Assembly: GCA_964632315.1 (NCBI GenBank)
Contig: CAZWEM010000009.1
Span: 1 to 64,000, forward strand
Origin: an uncultured archaeon
GTDB taxonomy: Archaea > Asgardarchaeota > Lokiarchaeia > Sigyniarchaeales > SOKP01
Length of the DNA stretch: 64,000 nt
Direction: 5' to 3'
The notes beneath the pieces were generated by a model. It worked only from the letters and a program-made list of their open reading frames with translations, was not told the DNA's origin and did not search any database. Position 1 is the first letter of the stretch; every line of letters begins with the position of its first letter. The translations under genes and the position numbers were made by a program. Below are positions 34,487 through 43,665 of the stretch, piece by piece.

Positions 34487-35525
34487 CTATAGTCTCTTAA
34501 TAATTAACTCAGCCATTCTATTTGAGAAGCCCCACTCGTTATCATAGTAGGAAAGTATAAATACTTCATCTTCAATGACTTTAGTCCACATAGAACTAAA
34601 TACAGAACTATGGGAGTTTCCAATAATATCATGACTCACAATAGGATCTTCCACGTAGTCTAATATTCCTTTTAAGGCACCCATGGATGCTTCTTTCATT
34701 TTAGCATTTACTTCTTCAGGAGTGGTTTTCTTTTCAACTATTGCTTTCAAGTCAACTACACTCCCATCTATGGTGGGAACTCTTATAGCAATACCGTCTA
34801 ATTTACCACTGAGTTCAGGAAATACTAAACCAATTGCCTTAGCAGCTCCAGTGGATGTAGGAATCATATTTTGAGCAGCAGCTCTGCCCCTAATCATCTT
34901 TTCAGGTGCACCTGCTCTAGCAATATCCGCTGTAGATTGATCGTTGGTGTATGAATGAATAGTTGTCATCAAACCATATTTGATGTTGAAATTTTCGTTC
35001 AGAACTTTTACAACAGGGGCTAAGCAGTTCGTCGTACATGAAGCATTTGAAATGATTTTATGCTCATCAGTTATTTTATCATCATTACATCCTAAAACAA
35101 CTGTAAAGTCGGGATTTGATGCTGGAGCGCTGATTAATACTCGTTTAGCTCCCGCAGTTAAGTGTTTAGATGCTCCATCTCTATCAGTAAATCTGCCAGT
35201 GGATTCCACTGCAACATCGATATTATTTTGACCATGTGGAAGATTTGCTGGATCTCTTTCTGCTGTTATTGGGATCTCCTTACCATCGATAACTAAAGAG
35301 TGTTCTTTAGCCTCAACTTTTCCTTTAAATTTCCCAAATACGGTATCATACTTTAATGCATAAGCTAGATATTTTGGATCGAAAAGATCATTAATCGATA
35401 CAATATCTATGTCATTCCAGTAGTTAGCGTATACTGCGCGAAAGAAGAGTCTTCCGATTCTGCCGAAGCCATGATTACTCCGTTAGCGAAGAGCTTAACG
35501 GATTTATACTGACTCGTTTCGCCAT
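34487..35525 (-). CDS. gap: Class I (bacterial/eukaryote-type) glyceraldehyde-3-phosphate dehydrogenase, split by a 31-nt intron; join(35504..35525,34487..35472), 335 aa
   Basis: Spliced N-terminus MAKRVSINGFGRIGRLFFRA...INDL...LKYDT; ESTGRF, SNASCTTNCLAP, TGAAKA, YDNEWGFS; (1039-31) nt = 336 codons. Confidence 0.93.
35473..35503 (-). other. Putative BHB-type mRNA intron in gap (31 nt)
   Basis: ATCCGTTAAGCTCTTCGCTAACGGAGTAATC; hairpin plus 4+3/4+3 BHB geometry; removal restores INGFG. Confidence 0.85.
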
Positions 35526-35814
35526 TTTATTTTTTCACCTTTTAAATTATTTAATGTTATTTTTTGTTTTTATGAATTTTCAATTTAAAATTGCATGCTA
35601 GTATGTTTTCGATAGTTTTTTAATTTTCTAGTTATAAATTTTATATTTGATCTCTTCTACCTATACACTTTACTGTTAAAAGTATTGTATTTGGTGTTTT
35701 GATCCATCAAAATTTATCTCTTAATTTAAGAAAATTAGACGCAAGTTTTAATTACTTTTAATTTCAGTTTAAATTCAATTTTTAAATTAAAATTACATTA
35801 AAAAAGAAAAAATT

Positions 35815-37236
35815 ATGACTCAAGAAGATAAAAAAGAAGTAGAAGTTAAAATCCCCGGTAGACGTGGGACTCAGGCAACGATAAACTTAGCAAATATTAT
35901 CGATAACTCCGATCAACAATTATTTTCTTCAGTATTTCCTCAAGTTCAAAGTTCGCTTGGTATTAGTATAGAGCAGGGAGGCTTTTTAACGGGTGTAAGG
36001 ACCATTCTTCAAGCGGTTTCAAGCCCAATTTGGGGATGGTGGAGCGATAGACATTCTAGAAGGCTAACTCTCGCAATAGGTTGCTTCCTTTGGGCATTAT
36101 TTACCATTTTAATTGCGTTTACATTTAGTTATATCGATATTTTAATTTATAGAGCCCTAACGGGGATTGGTCTTGCAGTAATTGTTCCAACAGCACAATC
36201 ACTTATCGCAGATTACTTTCCTCCGAAAACCAGAGGTAGAGCCTTCGGATGGTTAGGTCTGACAGGAGTTTTAGGTGCAGTGATTGGAGCTTTATTTGCT
36301 ACAGCCGTAGTTTCATATACATTGGTCTTTGGGATCGAAGCATGGAGATTTGTATTTATTGTTTGGGGTATTGTCAGTATCATTATTGGATTTTTAGTAC
36401 TACTTTTCTTAAAAGATCCTATTAGAGGTGAAATGGAACCTGAATTAAGAGAAGTAATTACTGCTAGAAAGGCACAAAGGTATAAAATACAACTGTCTGA
36501 TTATAAAAAAATATTCAAGAATAGAACGTTTGTTTTGATATTTCTTCAAGGAACAGCGGGTTCTATCCCATGGAGTGGACTAACAGCTTTCATGATAACT
36601 TGGTTTGAGTACATAGGATTTCCCACTTTTATCGCAGGAATAATGTTTGTCATTATAGGAGTAGGAGCAGCCTTAGGTAACCTTTTTGGAGGATGGATTG
36701 GAGATAAAGCGGCGAAATGGAATCCAAAACATGGACGACTGATTATTGCTCAGATTTCAGTATTTATTGGTATTCCCATGACTGCTGTGATATTTCTTTT
36801 AGTTCCCATGAGTATGGATTCTTTATTATTGTATCTCATACTAGGCGGATTAACAGGATTTGGCATCTCTTGGACCGCAGGAGGTTGTAATAATCCGATA
36901 TTTAGCGAGATATTTCCCCCTGAAATGAGGAGCTCTGCTTTTGCGGTAGATAGGGTTTTTGAAGGATCGTTTGGGGCATTAGGATCCATTTTTGTAGGTT
37001 TTGCCGCCGCGAGTTTCGGGTTCTTAACACCTTCTACGGAACTACAAAATATTCCCCTCAATGATCCATTGAGGATAGCTAACATGCAAGCACTCGCTTT
37101 AGGGATTTTCTTAGTTGCACTAATCCCATGGATAATTTGCTTGATAATCTATTCTTTTGTCTATCTTACTTATCCAAAAGACTATGAAAAGATGCGAGTT
37201 TTGTTGGAAACAAGAGCTCAAAAGTTGGAGGAATAA
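35815..37236 (+). CDS. MFS transporter (spinster-like)
   Basis: WGWWSDRHSRR, RALTGIG, SLIADYFPPKTRGRA; about 12 TMs. Confidence 0.9.
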   Translation: MTQEDKKEVEVKIPGRRGTQATINLANIIDNSDQQLFSSVFPQVQSSLGISIEQGGFLTGVRTILQAVSSPIWGWWSDRHSRRLTLAIGCFLWALFTILIAFTFSYIDILIYRALTGIGLAVIVPTAQSLIADYFPPKTRGRAFGWLGLTGVLGAVIGALFATAVVSYTLVFGIEAWRFVFIVWGIVSIIIGFLVLLFLKDPIRGEMEPELREVITARKAQRYKIQLSDYKKIFKNRTFVLIFLQGTAGSIPWSGLTAFMITWFEYIGFPTFIAGIMFVIIGVGAALGNLFGGWIGDKAAKWNPKHGRLIIAQISVFIGIPMTAVIFLLVPMSMDSLLLYLILGGLTGFGISWTAGGCNNPIFSEIFPPEMRSSAFAVDRVFEGSFGALGSIFVGFAAASFGFLTPSTELQNIPLNDPLRIANMQALALGIFLVALIPWIICLIIYSFVYLTYPKDYEKMRVLLETRAQKLEE

Positions 37237-37402
37237 ATCAGTATCAACTTTTTTTTAATTCTATTTCATCCATTCTAATTTTTAAAATTTTAATCACTTA
37301 AAAATCTAAACTTTACCTAACAAATTTCATTTAATTCTAGATATTTTTATTAATGTTACTACCACTTTATAAAGCATGTAGTTACCATTTTAGGAGATTA
37401 TA

Positions 37403-38623
37403 ATGAACGAGTTAGATGAGAAAATTTTACAGAAAATCGATGAAATGAAAGATGATATCATTCAATTTCACCAAAAGATGATAAGGATTCCTTCTGAAAA
37501 TCCTCCCTCTAAATATAAGGAAATCGCGAAATTTGTAGAAAAAAAAATGGATGAGATCGGGTTAAAAACTTCGATTAAGAGAAATAATGTCATTGGAGAA
37601 TATGATAATGGAGATTCCAAAACATTAATTTTTAATGGGCATTTTGATACGGTTGAGGCATTTAAAGGTTGGACTAAAGATCCATTTGAAGCTGAAATTG
37701 AGGGAGACAAAATTTATGGACGAGGGGCATCTGATGATAAATCCTCAGTAACCGCAGAACTTTTTGCGACTCAAGCATTAATCGAAGCTGGTATAGATTT
37801 AAAGGGAAAATTAATAGTTACTGCAGTTGGTGATGAAGAAACTGGCGGATTGAGAGGAGCAGATTATATAATAAGCAGTGGATTAGTGTCAGGAGATGCT
37901 TGTTTATTAGGAGATGCCGCAAATGGATATCCCTTTGGTTATTGCGGTGGAACAATGTATATCACGATTAATATTAAAGGAAAGACAGCCCATGGGTTGG
38001 CATTTCCCGACCTTCCCCCACCATATCGAAATGAGAATTCTGGGATAAATACCATTGAGCGGATGGTGAAGGTGATGAACTTTTTATTAAAATTAAAAGA
38101 AGAACTGCTACAAACAACAACTAAGTATCCTACTTCAGATGGTTGGGGATCTAATGTGAGTAGCATTAACCTCGCAGAAATCCACGGAGGTACGAAAATT
38201 ACTACCGTACCTGATCGTTGTTATCTTCATCTTAGCGTAAACACCATTCCTGAACAAGATGTCACAAGTATAAAGAAAAGATTACTAGATTTTGTCGAAG
38301 GTATGAAAGAGAAAGACCCTGATTTGAATATAACCGTTCAAATACCCGTTGCCATGGAACCGCAAGTGATCGAAGAATCGTCTCATTTCGCAAAAATTGT
38401 TTTAGATGCAGCAGAAACGATACACGGTGAAAAAAGGGAATTTAAAACCCTAATGCCTTCAACCGATGCTCATTGGTTTCAAGAGAGGGGGATTCCTACA
38501 ATTTTAGTAGGAGCTTCTGCTAAAGACAATAATATTCACGCTGAAGATGAATTCGTATATATTAAGGATCTGATCGATTTAGTTAAGATGTTTGCTTTAA
38601 CCGCTTTAAATTACTTAAAATGA
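37403..38623 (+). CDS. M20 (ArgE/DapE) family metallopeptidase/deacylase
   Basis: NGHFDTV, YGRGASDDK, DEETGG, HAEDE. Confidence 0.9.
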   Translation: MNELDEKILQKIDEMKDDIIQFHQKMIRIPSENPPSKYKEIAKFVEKKMDEIGLKTSIKRNNVIGEYDNGDSKTLIFNGHFDTVEAFKGWTKDPFEAEIEGDKIYGRGASDDKSSVTAELFATQALIEAGIDLKGKLIVTAVGDEETGGLRGADYIISSGLVSGDACLLGDAANGYPFGYCGGTMYITINIKGKTAHGLAFPDLPPPYRNENSGINTIERMVKVMNFLLKLKEELLQTTTKYPTSDGWGSNVSSINLAEIHGGTKITTVPDRCYLHLSVNTIPEQDVTSIKKRLLDFVEGMKEKDPDLNITVQIPVAMEPQVIEESSHFAKIVLDAAETIHGEKREFKTLMPSTDAHWFQERGIPTILVGASAKDNNIHAEDEFVYIKDLIDLVKMFALTALNYLK

Positions 38624-38630
38624 AGGACTG

Positions 38631-39863
38631 GTGAAGATGGCACCAACTGAAAAAAAAATTTTACAGAAAATTGATGATATGAAAGAAGAAATAATCAAAT
38701 TTCACCAACAGATCATAAGAATTCCTTCAGAAAACCCTCCTGGAAAATACAAGGCTATATCTGAATTTGTCAAGACAAAGTTTGAGGAATTGGGTCTCGA
38801 GACATTCTCCAAAAGATATAATGTAATAGGAAAAACTAAAGGCCCAGATCACCCAAAACTAATCGTTTATGCACACATGGATACTGTCCCCTCTTATGAT
38901 GGATGGAATGAAGCCAAACCATTTAGTGCCGAAATAGTTGATGATAAGATTTATGGTCGTGGTGCGTGTGATGATAAAGCTTGTGTTACTGCTGAAATCT
39001 TTGCTCTCAAGGCTTTAAAAGAATTGAATCTTGATCTTTCGGGGAAACTCACGCTACTCGCAACAATTGATGAAGAAACTGGAGGTTATAATGGTGCTAA
39101 ATACGTCCTTGATAAAAATCTTGTTTCGGGTGAAGCGTGTCTATTAGGTGATGGACGTGGACATTACCCCGTCGCATATTGTGGAGGATTTCTTCTCGTG
39201 AACTTCTTAATAAAGGGTAAGAAAGCCCATGCTTTAAGTTTTCCAGACATCCCTATTTATAGAAATGAATATTCAGGAATCAATGCAATAGAAAAGATGA
39301 AAAATATAATGAATTTTTTAACCCAACTCCAAGCAGAATTTCTCAATGTGGAAACAATGTATCCAAATTTTCCGGGTCATCCTTCCAAAGTGAATACTGT
39401 AAACATCGCAAAGATAGAAGGTGGTGAAAAACTATCTGTTGTGCCAGACAAAAGTTTAATGTATTGTCTAATAAACACGATTCCTGAACAAGATGTTGAG
39501 AGCATAAAAAAGAGAATCTTAAAGTTCATTGAACAAGCTAAAATAGAGGATCCCAATTTAGATGTAAATGTTCAATTCACGATGTCATTTGAACCTTTTA
39601 CAACGGATACCAATTCTAAAATCGCTAAGTCTGTTCAAATAGCAATAGAAACTGTCTATGGTGAAAAAAGGGAATTTAAATTATTTCAATCTGCAAATGA
39701 TGGTCACTTTTTCCATGAAAAAGGTATTGACACCATTTTAATGGGTACAGGCTCGCATGAATGCAGAGTGCACGAACCTGATGAGTTTGTTTATATCAAA
39801 GATTTGTTGGATACGACAAAAATTTTCGCACTAACAATAAAAAATTATTTAATAAACGATTAA
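38631..39863 (+). CDS. M20 (ArgE/DapE) family metallopeptidase/deacylase, tandem paralog
   Basis: AHMDTV, YGRGACDDK, DEETGG, HEPDE. Confidence 0.9.
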   Translation: MKMAPTEKKILQKIDDMKEEIIKFHQQIIRIPSENPPGKYKAISEFVKTKFEELGLETFSKRYNVIGKTKGPDHPKLIVYAHMDTVPSYDGWNEAKPFSAEIVDDKIYGRGACDDKACVTAEIFALKALKELNLDLSGKLTLLATIDEETGGYNGAKYVLDKNLVSGEACLLGDGRGHYPVAYCGGFLLVNFLIKGKKAHALSFPDIPIYRNEYSGINAIEKMKNIMNFLTQLQAEFLNVETMYPNFPGHPSKVNTVNIAKIEGGEKLSVVPDKSLMYCLINTIPEQDVESIKKRILKFIEQAKIEDPNLDVNVQFTMSFEPFTTDTNSKIAKSVQIAIETVYGEKREFKLFQSANDGHFFHEKGIDTILMGTGSHECRVHEPDEFVYIKDLLDTTKIFALTIKNYLIND

Positions 39864-39960
39864 AGCATATTTTCTTTCCTTTTTTTAAAATTAACTCTAT
39901 TCTTATTTAATGCTAAAAATCTGATAAATTATTAAAATATGAAACAAAAAGAAAAAGTTG

Positions 39961-40725
39961 TTAATCTTCTAAACTTTCCTTCCCCATTAAGCGCATGACG
40001 GAGTCTGCCAACTTATTTTGGGAACGACTTAAGATTCCTTTGATTTTTCCCTCTTTACCCAAAACTCTAAGCATGATTCCATTCCACACTGAAGAGGGAT
40101 CTCCTTTAACTTGTTTGAATCGATCGCGGAAAACTTTCACGGAGATGTTATCATAGTTTTTCGATGCGTCCGTGCATTTAAAGCACAAAATGCATTTATT
40201 CGTATCAACCTTTATTTCCTTTCCTTCTCTTGAAAGCGCTCCAACCGAACATTCATCTGCAAATGCTTCAAGAACCTTATTATCTTTCTCAGTTGACGTG
40301 ATTGTAATTGAACCGTCCACAACTTTTCGTACTTTGTTACCATTGTCTAAAGTACGCACTTCTTCTTCGAATTCAGGAAGGGAACCATTTTCTACTAACA
40401 GTACTTTATTTTCCCCATTTATTAGTAACTCAAGAGTATAACCTGGACAAATCCAAGTACAACTGCCACACCAAATGCATTTATCCGTATCTACGACGAT
40501 TTTCTTATCTGATTCAATTCTCATTTCTTCGGGGGTTCCAATAGCTGTTTTCTTGAGGGGTTCATCATAAATTGATACTGTTACTGGACATACACGATGG
40601 CAGAATCCACATTGGATGCATTTACTTTCATCGTATTGCAAAATCATCTCGTGATTAAGCATTTTATATACATAATGGGTAATATTTTCATCAATTTCGA
40701 TAGTCTTTTTAGCTGGTAATGACAT
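39961..40725 (-). CDS. 4Fe-4S dicluster (polyferredoxin-like) protein
   Basis: CIQCGFCHRVCP, CIWCGSCTWICP and a partial CILCFKC. Confidence 0.85.
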   Translation of the reverse strand: MSLPAKKTIEIDENITHYVYKMLNHEMILQYDESKCIQCGFCHRVCPVTVSIYDEPLKKTAIGTPEEMRIESDKKIVVDTDKCIWCGSCTWICPGYTLELLINGENKVLLVENGSLPEFEEEVRTLDNGNKVRKVVDGSITITSTEKDNKVLEAFADECSVGALSREGKEIKVDTNKCILCFKCTDASKNYDNISVKVFRDRFKQVKGDPSSVWNGIMLRVLGKEGKIKGILSRSQNKLADSVMRLMGKESLED

Positions 40726-40880
40726 GAGTCTTCCTTTTTAAAATGCTATTATAATATTATGTATTAATTTCTAAAAAATAAAAATCCTTTTAGTAATTTC
40801 CAAGATAGTAATTACTGGAATGGCTTTAAACTTGGGGGATTAAGGAAAATTCTCTTTAAAAATAAAAATTGGAAAAAAGA

Positions 40881-41753
40881 TTAGATCGATGATTTGGAAT
40901 CGATTTGATACATGATTTTATCATTCAACTTTAACTTTAATAATAATTTTTCTGCTCGTTTTCTATTATACGACCTAAGAGATTCAAGAATAATAATCCC
41001 AGGAAAAACAGAACCTGCTGCTATTAATGGACTTATCATTTCAATTATTATTGTCAAATCAAATCCGCTTCTTTCAACTGATGAGGAAACCCATGATATA
41101 ATCATCACGGCTAAGTTATACATAAATCCTACTCCTGCGAATCCTTTAATCACCTTATATAACGGTCTACTTGCTAAATCTGCGCTCATGAATTGAAAAC
41201 CATTGATTTTTTTTGCTTTAATTATTCCCACATCATTCATTACATATATAGGAATCACAATTAAAACAGATGGGATGGTTATTATCCATGCGATTTGCCA
41301 CAATGTTTCAATATCTGGAATATAATACGTTTCTGAAGGACTCACGCTTCTCATGAATTCAATAATAGATTTTTGACCTGCTAAGGTAAAGCACACATTT
41401 CCGACAAAGAAACCTAAAATTATAGATCTCGCCCAAATCTTGCGAAATAAGCTTGATTTACTTAATGGTTTAATTTCTACTAGTCCAATCTTGCTTTTCT
41501 TAGAGAGAAATTTTGTATATATTCTCATGAAAATTGGAGAGATGAAATATATTGCTATAATACCGAATATCGTTCCTGTTATTCCAGGCATTACGACAGC
41601 AAATATCCATTCCACTTGTACATTTCCAGGAGTAATGAAAAAACCTTCTGGGTATGTTATGGGATACGGCATTAAGGAAAACGCGATGATTGAGAGTGTT
41701 ATCAAAAAGATATATAAAATTATAAAAAATAAATAGGTCTTGTTTAGTTTCAT
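40881..41753 (-). CDS. Hypothetical membrane protein
   Basis: 290 aa, about 6 hydrophobic segments. Confidence 0.65.
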   Translation of the reverse strand: MKLNKTYLFFIILYIFLITLSIIAFSLMPYPITYPEGFFITPGNVQVEWIFAVVMPGITGTIFGIIAIYFISPIFMRIYTKFLSKKSKIGLVEIKPLSKSSLFRKIWARSIILGFFVGNVCFTLAGQKSIIEFMRSVSPSETYYIPDIETLWQIAWIITIPSVLIVIPIYVMNDVGIIKAKKINGFQFMSADLASRPLYKVIKGFAGVGFMYNLAVMIISWVSSSVERSGFDLTIIIEMISPLIAAGSVFPGIIILESLRSYNRKRAEKLLLKLKLNDKIMYQIDSKSSI

Positions 41754-41877
41754 ACATCATTGATATATTAAATTTATTTAAATTATGCCACTTAGATAAG
41801 AGATAAAGTAAATTCTTCCCTTTCCAACTTATTAAGGCAAATAAAATGAGATGATAAAAAATAGATTGGATAAAAAA

Positions 41878-43017
41878 TTAGGTCTTTTCTAATTCCATTT
41901 CCCTAATAGCTTTCCCCGATCTGAATGGGATATCTTCAACGCTTTCTCCGGCACGATACTTGAATTTCTCCTTAAAGGCATCGTTAAGCGACTGGAAGTA
42001 TAGAGATAACGGAAGGTTCATGGGGCAGTTATTATCACAATTTCCGCATTCGACACATCGATCAGCCACATGAGCGATACGTGTTAATTGATAGGTCTCT
42101 TTGTTAATCGTTTTCTCCTTTCGCTTCTTTTGTAAGATACAATCAACGCAATAGCATACAGGACAGCCTCGAATACACATTCCACACATCGTACATTTCT
42201 GTAATCGCTCAATTTTTTCTGTTTGTGAAAGTTTGTCCCATTCCTCTAAATCTTTTGCCCTCTTTGCAAGAGCTGCATCTTTAATTTCTTTGATTTTATC
42301 CACTAAATTTTGTTTAATATCGTTTGGTAAAGGTTTAGTCTTTATCTTCGATTTTTCGACTAAATCACTTCCTTTTTCAGTATAAACTTTTAAAATGATT
42401 TCATCAGAATCTATAGGCATCACTAAATCAGTGATTCCTAAATCAGCGACGACAGGAACTTTTCGGTTACATCGAGAACAATTTTCAGCTACGTTAATGG
42501 GGACTTCCTTGACCTTACCATCATCTAATTTCAGAATAAGTCCATTATCCCCAACTTTTTCTTTTACGACTTTAGCTGGATCGATATCCTTTACTTTCTT
42601 GATGTCCTTCGATGCACTTGGAATCATACCGCGATCTTCAAATGCAATGATAAAAAGATTCTCTAAATTCACCTGCCTAATTTTTGCTAATTCGATTAAA
42701 GCTCTTGTATCACATGGTCGAGCAATTACGGCAACTTTTTCATTTAAAGCTCCTTTTAAAGTTTTATGCAGATACTTCGCAGCTGAATCTGTTCTGGCAT
42801 AACCATAAGCTATCAAATTTGTTAAAGGGAATGTTTTAATGTCTTCTTCTTTTTCATAAACAGCTGGTATGACCGTAAATCGATCTTCTTCATTGGTTTT
42901 TTTATTAATTTTTGTTTCTGCACCTAATACTTTATCGACGTAGTTCTCTTTAAGAAGAGATCTTAATAAGATTGGAAAATCATCAATCTTTATGAGATAT
43001 TCTGCTAATGAATCCAT
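41878..43017 (-). CDS. FdhB/FrhB-like (F420-dependent dehydrogenase beta-type) Fe-S subunit
   Basis: KVAVIARPCDTRALIEL, NCSRC, KCTMCGMCIRGCPVCYCVDC, HVADRCVECGNCDNNCP. Confidence 0.8.
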   Translation of the reverse strand: MDSLAEYLIKIDDFPILLRSLLKENYVDKVLGAETKINKKTNEEDRFTVIPAVYEKEEDIKTFPLTNLIAYGYARTDSAAKYLHKTLKGALNEKVAVIARPCDTRALIELAKIRQVNLENLFIIAFEDRGMIPSASKDIKKVKDIDPAKVVKEKVGDNGLILKLDDGKVKEVPINVAENCSRCNRKVPVVADLGITDLVMPIDSDEIILKVYTEKGSDLVEKSKIKTKPLPNDIKQNLVDKIKEIKDAALAKRAKDLEEWDKLSQTEKIERLQKCTMCGMCIRGCPVCYCVDCILQKKRKEKTINKETYQLTRIAHVADRCVECGNCDNNCPMNLPLSLYFQSLNDAFKEKFKYRAGESVEDIPFRSGKAIREMELEKT

Positions 43018-43117
43018 GTTGTTCCAACTGGGTTTATTTAATTTTAAACTTAACTTATATTTTCTAATACTTACTATATTTTATTCTATTCTTTCTTGTA
43101 AAAAGAATTATAAATTT

Positions 43118-43190
43118 ATGTGTTGCATGGAGCTACCATTTCTTCGGTTGAGTTCTCATTTTTTTTAACTCAACTTCATCAGGAACACAT
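43118..43190 (-). promoter_or_regulatory. Eukaryote-like SECIS element in the 3' UTR of hdrA-mvhD
   Basis: ATGTGTT-CCTG-ATGAA-GTTGAGTT-AAAAAAAATGAG-AACTCAAC-CGAA...AACACAT: AUGA/GA kink-turn core, 8-bp upper stem, A-rich apical loop, 7-bp lower stem. Confidence 0.85.
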
Positions 43191-43197
43191 TAATTAT

Positions 43198-43665
43198 TCA
43201 TGTCTTGGCTTTTTTCGCTGCCGTATCAGGTCGTAAGGGACTGGGACCTAATTCACGTATGGTTTTATCAAATGCAGTCGCTTCTTGTTGAAATTTTTGG
43301 CCTTCTGCTGCGGTACAATATCCCAAGTGGATTCTATTTTCACTAAGTCCCATTGATTTGAGTACTTCCTTGGTATATTCGACTTCTCGATACGCAAAAT
43401 AATTTCCAGTCTCATAATCGCATTCTTTAGGGTATCAACCAACAACCATTACTCCATCCGCCCCTCGTCCAAAGGATCTCATTATTAAATCAGAATCGAC
43501 CCTTCCCGTACAAGGCACTAATATCACGCGAATTGAGGTTGGATATTGAGCTCTAATTGTGCCTGCCATATCTGCACTGCCATATCCTCATTTTTAGAAG
43601 ACTTTCGAGATGAAAGTCTCATTCCAACACAGGAAGGCAATGATCTTTATATCTTCTTCTGCCAT
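43198..43665 (-). CDS. mvhD: MvhD/VhuD [2Fe-2S] hydrogenase subunit, selenoprotein (U16, U67), split by a 30-nt intron; join(43622..43665,43198..43591), 145 aa
   Basis: [47 protein letters not shown]...GADGVMVVGUYPKECDYETGN...ELGPSPLR; TGA at 43588-43590 and 43435-43437 fall at Cys/Sec positions; missed by the ORF track. Confidence 0.92.
43592..43621 (-). other. Putative BHB-type mRNA intron in mvhD (30 nt)
   Basis: TGAGACTTTCATCTCGAAAGTCTTCTAAAA; 9-bp stem, central helix TTGG/CTAA, 3-nt bulges AAT and AAA; in-frame TAA. Confidence 0.88.

What the first reader, a model, noticed from the sequence alone, without database searches (positions are those of the whole stretch)
34487..43665. Candidate system: bulge-helix-bulge micro-introns in protein-coding mRNAs of an Asgard archaeon
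Seen: two unrelated, otherwise intact conserved genes about 8 kb apart (gap, mvhD) each carry a 30-31 nt insert within the first 16 codons. Both inserts sit in an essential motif, are hairpins with a 5-nt loop (TCTTC, ATCTC), carry an in-frame TAA in the 3' strand of the central helix (GTAA, CTAA), and show the geometry exon stem / 4-nt helix / 3-nt bulge / intron stem / 4-nt helix / 3-nt bulge / exon stem. Established: archaeal EndA cuts BHB motifs after the 2nd nt of each bulge and RtcB ligates the exons; mRNA introns of this kind are rare, the crenarchaeal cbf5 intron being the classic case. Applying that rule restores both proteins exactly. Inference: this lineage splices mRNAs of core metabolic genes with the tRNA-splicing machinery. 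Two in 64 kb suggests more genome-wide, hidden as truncated or missing genes. This bears on non-spliceosomal mRNA splicing in the lineage closest to eukaryotes.
Basis: partly seen in the sequence, partly recalled or inferred. Interest (0 to 1): 0.97.

Follow-up and report, generated by a model that had tools for sequence, protein, structure and literature searches.

The report
tRNA-type mini-introns in Asgard protein genes
Two otherwise intact genes of a Loki-type (Asgard) archaeon, its only detected GAPDH and a selenocysteine-containing MvhD/VhuD, are each broken by a ~30-base hairpin with the shape that the tRNA-splicing enzyme cuts; removing it at the enzyme's known cut sites restores the conserved protein exactly, so these messages almost certainly have to be spliced, which in print is known for only one archaeal protein-gene family (cbf5).

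Summary
Both fold as helix / 4-bp helix / 3-nt bulge motifs, strict in mvhD and relaxed in gap. Cutting after the 2nd nucleotide of each bulge gives exactly what intron-less orthologues encode: MAKRVSINGFGRIGR and [15 protein letters not shown].

The inserts are present in contigs from independent metagenome studies, so they are not assembly artefacts. The gap insert was found only in this species among 154 genomes of the order, and a 95%-identical relative lacks exactly these 31 nt. The mvhD site is occupied in 6 of the 154 species. Their insert sequences differ, the helices are kept, and both exons stay intact.

The genome encodes a catalytic EndA alpha subunit with the broad-specificity loop, a beta-like subunit and RtcB. 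It has no second GAPDH. I verified same-architecture inserts in TBP, LeuRS, ACS (two) and a GH38 gene.

Genome-wide motif scans show no statistical excess, so the total is probably tens, not hundreds. No RNA data exist, so splicing itself is inferred.

The scan had already flagged this phenomenon elsewhere in the same genome (TBP, histone, EF-2 and others). I found no paper reporting it.

The parts
35504..35525 (-). gap exon 1 (ATG..., MAKRVSI + first 1 nt... i.e. 22 nt ending AGTATAA)
   Evidence: It encodes MAKRVSI(N), identical to the orthologues' N-termini.
35473..35503 (-). gap micro-intron, 31 nt: 1 nt + 10-nt stem strand with a bulged A + loop UCUUC + 9-nt stem strand + GUAA + UC
   Evidence: It is absent from about 27 orthologues, from 153 other genomes of the order and from a 95%-identical relative. 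Contigs of three studies span it without gaps.
34487..35472 (-). gap exon 2 (AT + GGC TTC GGC ... stop)
   Evidence: Pfam Gp_dh_N starts at profile position 7 at the first residue, and Gp_dh_C is complete. The spliced product is 335 aa.
35466..35515 (-). gap BHB: h1 35515-35510 / 35471-35466; H 35509-35506 / H' 35478-35475; 5' bulge 35505-35503; 3' bulge 35474-35472; intron hairpin 35502-35479
   Evidence: Pairing read from the sequence. The minimum-energy fold keeps h1 and the intron stem. The motif was found by my scanner at L=31.
43622..43665 (-). mvhD/vhuD exon 1 ([14 protein letters not shown] + AA)
   Evidence: Exon 1 is conserved in all six intron-bearing species.
43592..43621 (-). mvhD micro-intron, 30 nt: U + GAGACUUUC + AUCUC + GAAAGUCUU + CUAA + AA
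   Evidence: An insert occupies the same site in 6 of 154 species. An X8 contig spans it without gaps.
43198..43591 (-). mvhD exon 2 (A + TGA(Sec) GGA TAT GGC ... ), with Sec codons at 43590-43588 and 43437-43435
   Evidence: Intron-less orthologues read [11 protein letters not shown](S/A)[10 protein letters not shown] and carry the second TGA as well.
43591..43627 (-). mvhD BHB core: H 43627-43624 (UUGG) / H' 43597-43594 (CUAA); 5' bulge 43623-43621 (AAU); 3' bulge 43593-43591 (AAA); intron hairpin 43620-43598
   Evidence: Pair counts across six species: 84% of cells paired versus 38-54% with slid partners.
43118..43187 (-). SECIS-like hairpin in the mvhD 3' UTR (UGAUGA ... A-rich apical loop ... 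CGAAG)
   Evidence: Fold. There is no Rfam hit, so the SECIS identity rests on the motif alone and is inferred.

Best explanation
Both inserts are archaeal bulge-helix-bulge (BHB) introns inside protein-coding messages.

Proposed mechanism:
1. The primary transcript folds. The last bases of the 5' exon pair with the last bases of the intron, forming the 4-bp central helix.
2. The intron's own 9-bp hairpin stacks on one side of that helix and an exon-exon helix on the other.
3. The heteromeric (alpha-beta)2 splicing endonuclease EndA cuts between the 2nd and 3rd nucleotide of each 3-nt bulge.
4. RtcB joins the exons.
5. Only the spliced mRNA encodes GAPDH with an intact INGFGRIGR NAD-binding loop, or MvhD/VhuD with its C-W-K-Sec cluster motif. 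The unspliced message yields a 16- or 23-residue peptide.

Shown here: the motif, the exact restoration of the protein, the DNA reality of the inserts, the insert-free orthologues, retention across species with structure-preserving changes, presence of the machinery, and further examples in the same genome.

Inferred: the cleavage and ligation themselves, and how the introns arrived. The gap intron is a recent gain on a terminal branch. The mvhD site is either an old intron lost many times or a pre-adapted site hit repeatedly.
For: 1. Exact restoration. Splicing at the canonical sites gives a 335-aa GAPDH and [15 protein letters not shown].
   - About 27 orthologues from the relatives search read M(A/T)KRVxINGFGRIGR without interruption; about 60 more gap 5' ends matched in the order-wide pattern search are also uninterrupted.
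   - All but three of the 30 MvhD loci inspected read (F/L/M)C(W/L/Y)K-TGA-G(Y/F)G; the three exceptions (G000, G016, G029) carry the insert.
   - A 95%-identical relative differs by a clean 31-nt gap.
   - An intron-less relative in run X1 reads CWK-TGA-GYG.
2. The cut rule is the published one (PMC2738675).
3. Pfam Gp_dh_N begins at profile position 7 at the first residue of exon 2.
4. The inserts are in DNA. Contigs of runs X1, X3 and X4 (three studies) span the gap insert with 0 gaps, and X8 spans the mvhD insert.
5. The mvhD site is occupied in G000, G016, G146, G105, G128 and G029.
   - Three of these inserts are 31 nt and shift the frame, and one has a stop.
   - Exon 1 and exon 2 are intact in all six.
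   - The helices are kept through changes such as U-A to C-G.
6. The machinery is present.
   - EndA alpha aligns to the A. pernix catalytic subunit 3p1z_B, with the Tyr/His/Lys positions and the N-terminal loop.
   - A second EndA paralogue lacks the His.
   - RtcB is present.
   - Asgard archaea are reported to have (alpha-beta)2 EndA with the L1 loop that allows relaxed motifs (PMC5829648).
7. Necessity. The genome is 99.5% complete and has one class-I gap and no type-II GAPDH.
8. Generality. Same-size, same-architecture inserts occur in TBP, LeuRS, ACS (two) and GH38. Pfam profile coordinates are contiguous across the junctions. In TBP the BHB rule yields the consensus IQNIVASGDL.
Against: There is no RNA evidence. 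No RNA run holds this sequence.

The gap central helix has only 3 of 4 pairs, and the mvhD exon helix needs a bulge or an asymmetric internal loop, so both depend on a relaxed-specificity EndA that has never been assayed for this lineage.

In G016 and G146 the 30-nt insert is open in frame, so there it could in principle be translated as 10 extra residues.

Covariation support is modest with six sequences: 4 pairs show double changes, and 29 of 500 shuffles reach the observed score.

BHB-like motifs at my thresholds are as common as in a mirrored control genome-wide. The motif alone therefore proves little. The argument rests on its coincidence with the homology-defined junctions.
Confidence: 0.8

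Rival explanations
1. The genes are pseudogenes, inactivated by insertion of a small hairpin-forming element. The BHB resemblance is accidental.
For: Read as DNA, both genes are truncated. BHB-like motifs are frequent by chance in this AT-rich genome. MvhD has 12 paralogous matches in the genome, so one copy could be dispensable.
Against: - Neither gene has any other lesion.
- gap is the only GAPDH detected.
- Inserts of the same kind sit in TBP and LeuRS.
- Six species keep both mvhD exons, the two Sec codons and the helices despite the insert.
- The insert boundaries coincide with the BHB cut sites at every locus checked.
Confidence: 0.06
2. The inserts are bypassed during translation, by ribosome hopping as in T4 gene 60 or the 'byp' elements of yeast mitochondria, or by another recoding event, without RNA splicing.
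For: The inserts are short stop-containing hairpins inside coding sequence, which is the general look of bypass elements. The mvhD insert also sits next to a recoded UGA.
Against: Matching take-off and landing codons do not give the conserved product. In gap, landing on the downstream AAU would add a His (IN-H-GFG), whereas all orthologues read INGFG. In mvhD, the downstream AAU is out of frame (read). Inserts at the same mvhD site in other species share structure but not codons. The helix geometry involving exon bases is unexplained by hopping.
Confidence: 0.04
3. EndA recognises the motif but the outcome is regulatory. Cleavage destroys or gates the mRNA, or splicing is conditional, so the element acts as a switch rather than a constitutively removed intron.
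For: Both inserts lie within the first 16 codons, where they would block translation until removed. The H. volcanii HVO_1309 5'-UTR BHB intron affects expression (PMC7714728).
Against: Other inserts in this genome are deep inside genes (LeuRS codon ~148, ACS, TBP). Exact frame restoration is not needed for a pure cleavage switch. Nothing here speaks to conditionality.
Confidence: 0.07
4. Assembly or sequencing artefact.
For: The genome is a 119-contig MAG with 8.6% estimated contamination.
Against: Independent Logan contigs from four studies carry the inserts without gaps. Related species carry homologous inserts at the mvhD site.
Confidence: 0.01

Closest known systems
cbf5 pre-mRNA intron of Crenarchaeota (Desulfurococcales/Sulfolobales); Watanabe 2002, Yoshinari 2006, Yokobori 2009 (PMC2738675)
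   Same: - A BHB or relaxed-BHB intron inside a protein-coding region.
- Predicted cuts between the 2nd and 3rd bulge nucleotides.
- Dependence on a hetero-oligomeric, relaxed-specificity EndA.
- Patchy gain and loss among relatives.
   Different: - A different phylum (Asgard/Promethearchaeota).
- Many unrelated host genes in one genome rather than one gene family.
- A stereotyped ~30-nt size (1 + 9-10 bp stem + 5-nt loop + 4 + 2).
- At least one very recent gain.
- Splicing is not yet shown experimentally here.
BHB introns of Asgard tRNA genes (bioRxiv 10.64898/2026.10.13.758758; PMC5829648)
   Same: The same predicted enzyme and motif. The same pattern of repeated, often terminal-branch gains at sites able to form the motif, with no identifiable donor copies.
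   Different: The hosts are mRNAs, so removal must be exact to the nucleotide for the reading frame and must precede translation. That preprint does not mention protein-coding hosts.
BHB intron in the 5' UTR of H. volcanii HVO_1309 mRNA (PMC7714728)
   Same: An EndA substrate in an mRNA, verified there in vivo and in vitro.
   Different: It lies in the untranslated leader, not in the coding sequence, and it is a single case in that genome.
HAC1/XBP1 unconventional splicing in eukaryotes (Ire1 cleavage, RtcB ligation)
   Same: Spliceosome-independent removal of a short mRNA intron defined by RNA stem-loops. Exon ligation is by an RtcB-type ligase (Trl1 in yeast). An intron that blocks production of the functional protein.
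   Different: The endonuclease is Ire1, not EndA/TSEN. The system is regulated by stress and acts on one dedicated substrate.
Translational bypass elements (T4 gene 60; 'byps' in Magnusiomyces mitochondria)
   Same: Short stop-containing hairpin inserts in otherwise intact coding sequences.
   Different: Those remain in the mRNA and need matched take-off and landing codons. Here no such codon pair gives the conserved product, and exon bases take part in a BHB.

Membership tests
Archaeal BHB (EndA/RtcB-dependent) intron | Two 3-nt bulges on opposite strands separated by a 4-bp helix and flanked by helices (hBHBh' or a relaxed form) at the exon-intron borders | tested here: met
   mvhD has a 4-bp UUGG/CUAA helix, bulges AAU and AAA, a 9-bp intron helix and an exon helix with one irregularity. 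gap has the same layout with 3 of 4 pairs in the central helix and a perfect 6-bp exon helix.
Archaeal BHB (EndA/RtcB-dependent) intron | Cleavage between the 2nd and 3rd bulge nucleotides yields the functional product | tested here: met
   The predicted products equal the orthologues' sequences at both loci. The rule is taken from PMC2738675. The same holds for TBP, LeuRS, ACS and GH38.
Archaeal BHB (EndA/RtcB-dependent) intron | The host encodes a splicing endonuclease able to cut relaxed motifs outside a tRNA context: (alpha-beta)2 with the Crenarchaea-type loop | tested here: met
   There are two tRNA_int_endo genes. The alpha subunit aligns to 3p1z_B, including the loop region and the Tyr/His/Lys positions. 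The second paralogue lacks the catalytic His. The literature reports Asgard EndA as (alpha-beta)2 with L1 (PMC5829648).
Archaeal BHB (EndA/RtcB-dependent) intron | RtcB-type 3'-phosphate RNA ligase present | tested here: met
   One full-length RtcB, 568 bits against PF01139.
Archaeal BHB (EndA/RtcB-dependent) intron | Structure maintained in evolution (covariation) | tested here: inconclusive
   Across six species at the mvhD site, 84% of cells are paired versus 38-54% when partners are slid, and 4 pairs change on both sides. However, 29 of 500 shuffles reach the covariation score and the sequences are related.
Archaeal BHB (EndA/RtcB-dependent) intron | Spliced RNA and excised intron exist in vivo; EndA cuts in vitro | not testable with these tools
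   No RNA run holds the sequence.
Selenoprotein MvhD/VhuD | In-frame UGA at conserved Cys positions, shared by orthologues | tested here: met
   27 of the 30 loci read ...CWK-TGA-GYG uninterrupted and the other three carry the insert before the same TGA; 26 of the 30 best-matching loci show a further TGA inside the match. In G000 the codons are at 43590-43588 and 43437-43435.
Selenoprotein MvhD/VhuD | SECIS element in the untranslated region | tested here: inconclusive
   A hairpin with UGAUGA ... A-rich loop ... GAAG lies in the 3' UTR. No Rfam family matched.

The most novel reading that the evidence does not exclude
Lokiarchaeial (Asgard) genomes are gaining introns in protein-coding genes now. 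Roughly 30-nt BHB hairpins land in any coding site whose exon bases can complete the motif, including essential single-copy genes (TBP, LeuRS, the only GAPDH). Expression of these genes then depends on EndA/RtcB mRNA splicing. Translation therefore has to wait for RNA processing in a prokaryote on the eukaryotic stem lineage. The same site (mvhD) is either hit repeatedly or retained across families, which hints at an RNA-level insertion route such as reversal of the cleavage-ligation reaction followed by copying into DNA.
Probability: 0.35. Interest if true: 0.95.

Novelty: new variant of a known kind. Interest (0 to 1): 0.82.

Why it matters
In print, protein-coding BHB introns are known for one gene family in Crenarchaeota, plus one 5'-UTR case in Haloferax. 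This one Asgard genome carries them in at least seven unrelated genes, several of them essential, and at least one gain is younger than a 5% protein divergence.

If splicing is confirmed, three things follow:
- A prokaryote close to the eukaryotic ancestor routinely expresses split protein genes through a protein-only splicing pathway whose enzymes are the ancestors of eukaryotic TSEN and RtcB.
- Translation must be held back until processing is done. That is the selective problem often invoked for the origin of the nucleus.
- Gene callers systematically truncate or miss such genes in Asgard MAGs, which biases metabolic reconstructions. Here they would report 'no GAPDH' and 'no intact VhuD'.

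The claim is directly testable with metatranscriptomes from the salt-marsh sites that hold this organism.

Tried and rejected
- RNA evidence. The look-up of sequencing runs listed no RNA holder, so nothing can be said about expression.
- Spliced-product search. A protein search with gap exon 2 found no 100%-identical 335-aa protein that could have come from a spliced transcript. The best hit is 95% identical and comes from an intron-less relative.
- Genome-wide BHB scans. I ran four designs: loose, hairpin-anchored, fixed architecture, and each combined with ORF-rescue and codon-usage filters. None showed an excess over a mirrored-geometry control (14671 vs 14697, 28938 vs 29247, 255 vs 248). 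They cannot enumerate the introns. Real cases (TBP, LeuRS, ACS x2, GH38) had to be picked out by conserved junction peptides and then checked with Pfam.
- Donor copies. blastn-short of seven intron sequences against the genome found no related copy, so these are not a repeat family in sequence terms.
- Target-site duplication. ATGAG flanks the mvhD insert in G000, G016 and G146. This is not seen in G105, G128, G029, gap or TBP, so I rejected it as a general signature.
- Ribosome hopping. Rejected on codon grounds (see rivals).
- Rfam. No hit in the window.
- In-frame TAA/TAG hits in MvhD paralogues of other genomes. Four of the five are ordinary stop codons at the gene's end and one is an in-frame TAA inside the domain (G002:C4, listed under noticed in passing); none is an intron.
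- aragorn found only 30 tRNAs, with unreliable intron calls, so I did not compare tRNA and mRNA intron sizes.
- EF-2 paralogue (C25). An in-frame TAA sits inside a hairpin, with both a 30-nt and a 27-nt solution. I could not fix the junction by homology.
- TBP-site pattern search across the order. Only G000 was clearly positive.


Full report
**What is there**

The window is contig C9 of a 4.45-Mb, 119-contig MAG. Homologues of its proteins are named Promethearchaeota, Lokiarchaeota or Thorarchaeota, and its DNA is found in salt-marsh metagenomes.

On the minus strand a class-I GAPDH gene starts at 35525 and stops at 34487.
- After 22 nt the frame runs into a 31-nt segment (35503-35473) and ends at an in-frame TAA.
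- The remaining 327 codons are open in another frame. They have no start codon before the GFGRIGR codons.
- Deleting the 31 nt gives a 335-aa protein beginning MAKRVSINGFGRIGR.

About 8 kb away an mvhD/vhuD-type gene (43665-43198, minus strand) is interrupted after 44 nt by a 30-nt segment (43621-43592) that carries an in-frame TAA.
- Deleting it gives ...[20 protein letters not shown]...
- A second in-frame TGA follows further on.
- Both TGA codons are shared by orthologues at conserved Cys positions, so this is a selenoprotein gene.

**Structure**

Each strand of each insert reads 5' to 3': outer helix, 4-nt helix strand, 3-nt bulge, next helix. This is the handedness of the archaeal BHB motif.
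- mvhD: UUGG pairs with CUAA. The bulges are AAU and AAA. The intron forms a 9-bp stem with loop AUCUC. The exons pair around it, and RNAfold extends this to UCCU/AGGA plus CAUUGCC/GGCAGUG.
- gap: a perfect 6-bp exon helix (GAGUCA/UGGCUU), a central helix GUAU/GUAA with three pairs and an outer G.A, bulges AAA and UCA, and a 9-bp stem with one bulged A and loop UCUUC.

Both regions fold better than shuffles, with z-scores of -3.0 and -3.2.

The published cut rule for BHB introns, including the cbf5 mRNA intron, places the cut between the 2nd and 3rd bulge residues (PMC2738675). Applying it gives AGT ATA AA|T GGC for gap and TGG AA|A TGA for mvhD.

**Is the junction right?**

Orthologues fix it independently.
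- gap: about 27 orthologues, from the same genus out to the order, read M(A/T)KRVxINGFGRIGR without interruption. About 60 more appeared as uninterrupted matches in a pattern search.
- gap: the closest protein in the large database is 95% identical and 335 aa long. Its contig aligns to the window with one clean 31-column gap at this spot.
- mvhD: 27 of the 30 loci inspected, each the best match in its genome, read (F/L/M)C(W/L/Y)K-TGA-G(Y/F)G; G000, G016 and G029 carry the insert at that point.
- mvhD: a diverged intron-less relative in run X1 reads CWK-TGA-GYG.
- Pfam Gp_dh_N starts at profile position 7 at the first residue of gap exon 2.

**Chance**

BHB-like motifs at permissive thresholds are common in this AT-rich genome and no more frequent than in a mirrored control. 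The motif alone is therefore weak evidence. What matters is the register. Among 31446 genomic hairpins with a 9-bp stem and 5-nt loop, 1.7% have flanks that meet H>=3/4 and h1>=4/5. Both loci meet this at the position fixed by homology.

**Artefact?**

No. Logan contigs from runs X1, X3 and X4, from three different studies, cover 35473-35503 with no gap. An X8 contig covers 43592-43621.

**Evolution**

A degenerate pattern for the mvhD site was searched in all 154 species-level genomes of the order. It found inserts in six:
- G000, G016 and G146 (same genus, 30 nt);
- G105 and G128 (another genus, 31 nt);
- G029 (another family, 31 nt, GC-rich, unrelated in sequence).

Three of these inserts shift the frame and one carries a stop. 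Exon 1, exon 2 and the Sec codons are intact in all six.

On the alignment, 84% of pair cells form standard pairs, against 38-54% when partners are slid. Four stem pairs change on both sides, for example U-A to C-G. With six related sequences this is supportive, not decisive.

In a gene tree the intron-bearing alleles need at least three changes, and the G105/G128 copies belong to a different paralogue clade. The site is therefore either ancient with many precise losses or hit repeatedly. The exon bases that build the helices encode the conserved F-L-C-W-K-U-G-Y, so the site is pre-adapted.

The gap insert is in G000 only and is younger than a 5% protein divergence. This matches what a recent preprint reports for Asgard tRNA introns: many independent, often terminal-branch gains at sites able to form a BHB, with no identified route of arrival.

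**Machinery and necessity**

- The genome has two tRNA_int_endo genes.
- One aligns end to end with the catalytic subunit of the A. pernix heterotetramer (3p1z_B). The alignment includes the N-terminal loop region and the Tyr, His and Lys positions.
- The other has lost the His and looks like a structural subunit.
- RtcB is present.
- The literature reports that Asgard archaea have (alpha-beta)2 EndA with the L1 loop that confers relaxed specificity (PMC5829648). The cbf5 intron was linked to exactly this enzyme type (PMC2738675).
- The 99.5%-complete genome holds one class-I gap and no type-II GAPDH.

**Other cases in the genome**

Earlier notes of this scan report similar inserts in TBP, histone, EF-2, Top6B, SCP2, thiolase and other genes. 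I checked TBP myself. A 30-nt insert at C18:19083-19112 has a 9-bp stem and loop AUAUC. The BHB cut rule gives ...IQNI-V-ASGDL..., the consensus, whereas a naive deletion would give F.

From my own scans I also recovered:
- LeuRS, C41:26283-26254: ...PMGYD^SFGLPAEN...
- Acetyl-CoA synthetase, C25:819-788 and C25:164-135: ...WYCTA^DIGWITGHSY... and ...AQ^PWPGM...
- A GH38 hydrolase, C4:136906-136935: ...THWDRE^WYLPF...

Pfam profile coordinates run on across the junctions: AMP-binding 211 then 215, tRNA-synt_1g 46 then 48, GH38N from position 14, and TBP repeat 2 from position 9.

All share one build: 1 nt + 9-10-bp stem + 5-nt loop + 4 nt + 2 nt, making 30-32 nt. The seven checked share no sequence with each other or with anything else in the genome.

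Because motif scans show no excess over control, the total is likely tens.

**Alternatives**

- Pseudogenes. Contradicted by the absence of other lesions, by the single-copy essential hosts and by retention across species.
- Ribosome hopping. It fails on codons. The only matching landing codon in gap would add a His, and the one in mvhD is out of frame.
- Self-splicing introns. Excluded by size.
- A regulatory, conditional use of the cut. Cannot be excluded.

**Literature**

Full-text searches found no report of BHB introns in Asgard protein-coding genes. A 2020 study still counts cbf5 and one Haloferax 5'-UTR intron as the only mRNA cases (PMC7714728).

**Verdict**

Splicing itself remains to be shown at the RNA level.

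Noticed in passing
window 43680-~45680 (-), TGA at 45581-45579 and 45032-45030: The hdrA-like gene just upstream of mvhD has two in-frame TGA codons at Cys-type positions (...FVCR-U-GINIAG... and ...TDDCSI-U-ILGPKM...). ORF callers report only the last 444 aa. It is probably a second selenoprotein in the same operon.
   Followed up: partly
window ~43118-43187 (-): The 3' UTR of mvhD folds into a hairpin with UGAUGA on the 5' side, an A-rich apical loop and GAAG on the 3' side. This looks like a kink-turn SECIS. No Rfam family matched.
   Followed up: partly
G000 C18:19083-19112 (+): The TBP gene is split by a 30-nt BHB insert with an in-frame TAA at the repeat 1/repeat 2 junction. Canonical cuts give IQNIVASGDL.
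   Followed up: yes
G000 C41:26283-26254 (-); C25:819-788 and 164-135 (-); C4:136906-136935 (+): Inserts of 30-32 nt with the same architecture lie in LeuRS, acetyl-CoA synthetase (two) and a GH38 glycosidase. Pfam profiles run on across each junction.
   Followed up: yes
G000 C25:~29394-29365 (-): An EF-2-family paralogue has one in-frame TAA inside a hairpin just before EEQERGITI. A 30-nt solution with a perfect UCAG/CUGA helix exists. I did not fix the junction by homology.
   Followed up: partly
G098:C143:7481-7531; G089:C109:146-195: Pattern searches turned up possible short inserts at the same codon positions in other species: 25 nt before GFGRIG in a second gap-like gene, and 24 nt before ASGD in a TBP-like gene. 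I did not examine them.
   Followed up: no
G000 contigs C36, C74, C80, C82, C87, C90, C103 and others: Nineteen contigs have 43-70% G+C, against about 33% for the rest. They are probably contamination of the bin, and I left them out of my later scans.
   Followed up: partly
G000 whole genome: aragorn finds only 30 tRNA genes, 19 of them with 'introns' and many calls implausible. This fits the reported difficulty of annotating heavily interrupted Asgard tRNA genes.
   Followed up: no
L097 (JGI contig of the 95%-identical relative): That relative has two GAPDH genes in tandem. G000 has a single gap next to an MFS transporter gene.
   Followed up: no
G002:C4:4358-4714 (L064): An MvhD domain fused into an ~800-aa protein carries a single in-frame TAA (...FAQVV*NFKTEL...) with no insert. 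It is either a point nonsense change or a sequencing error.
   Followed up: no
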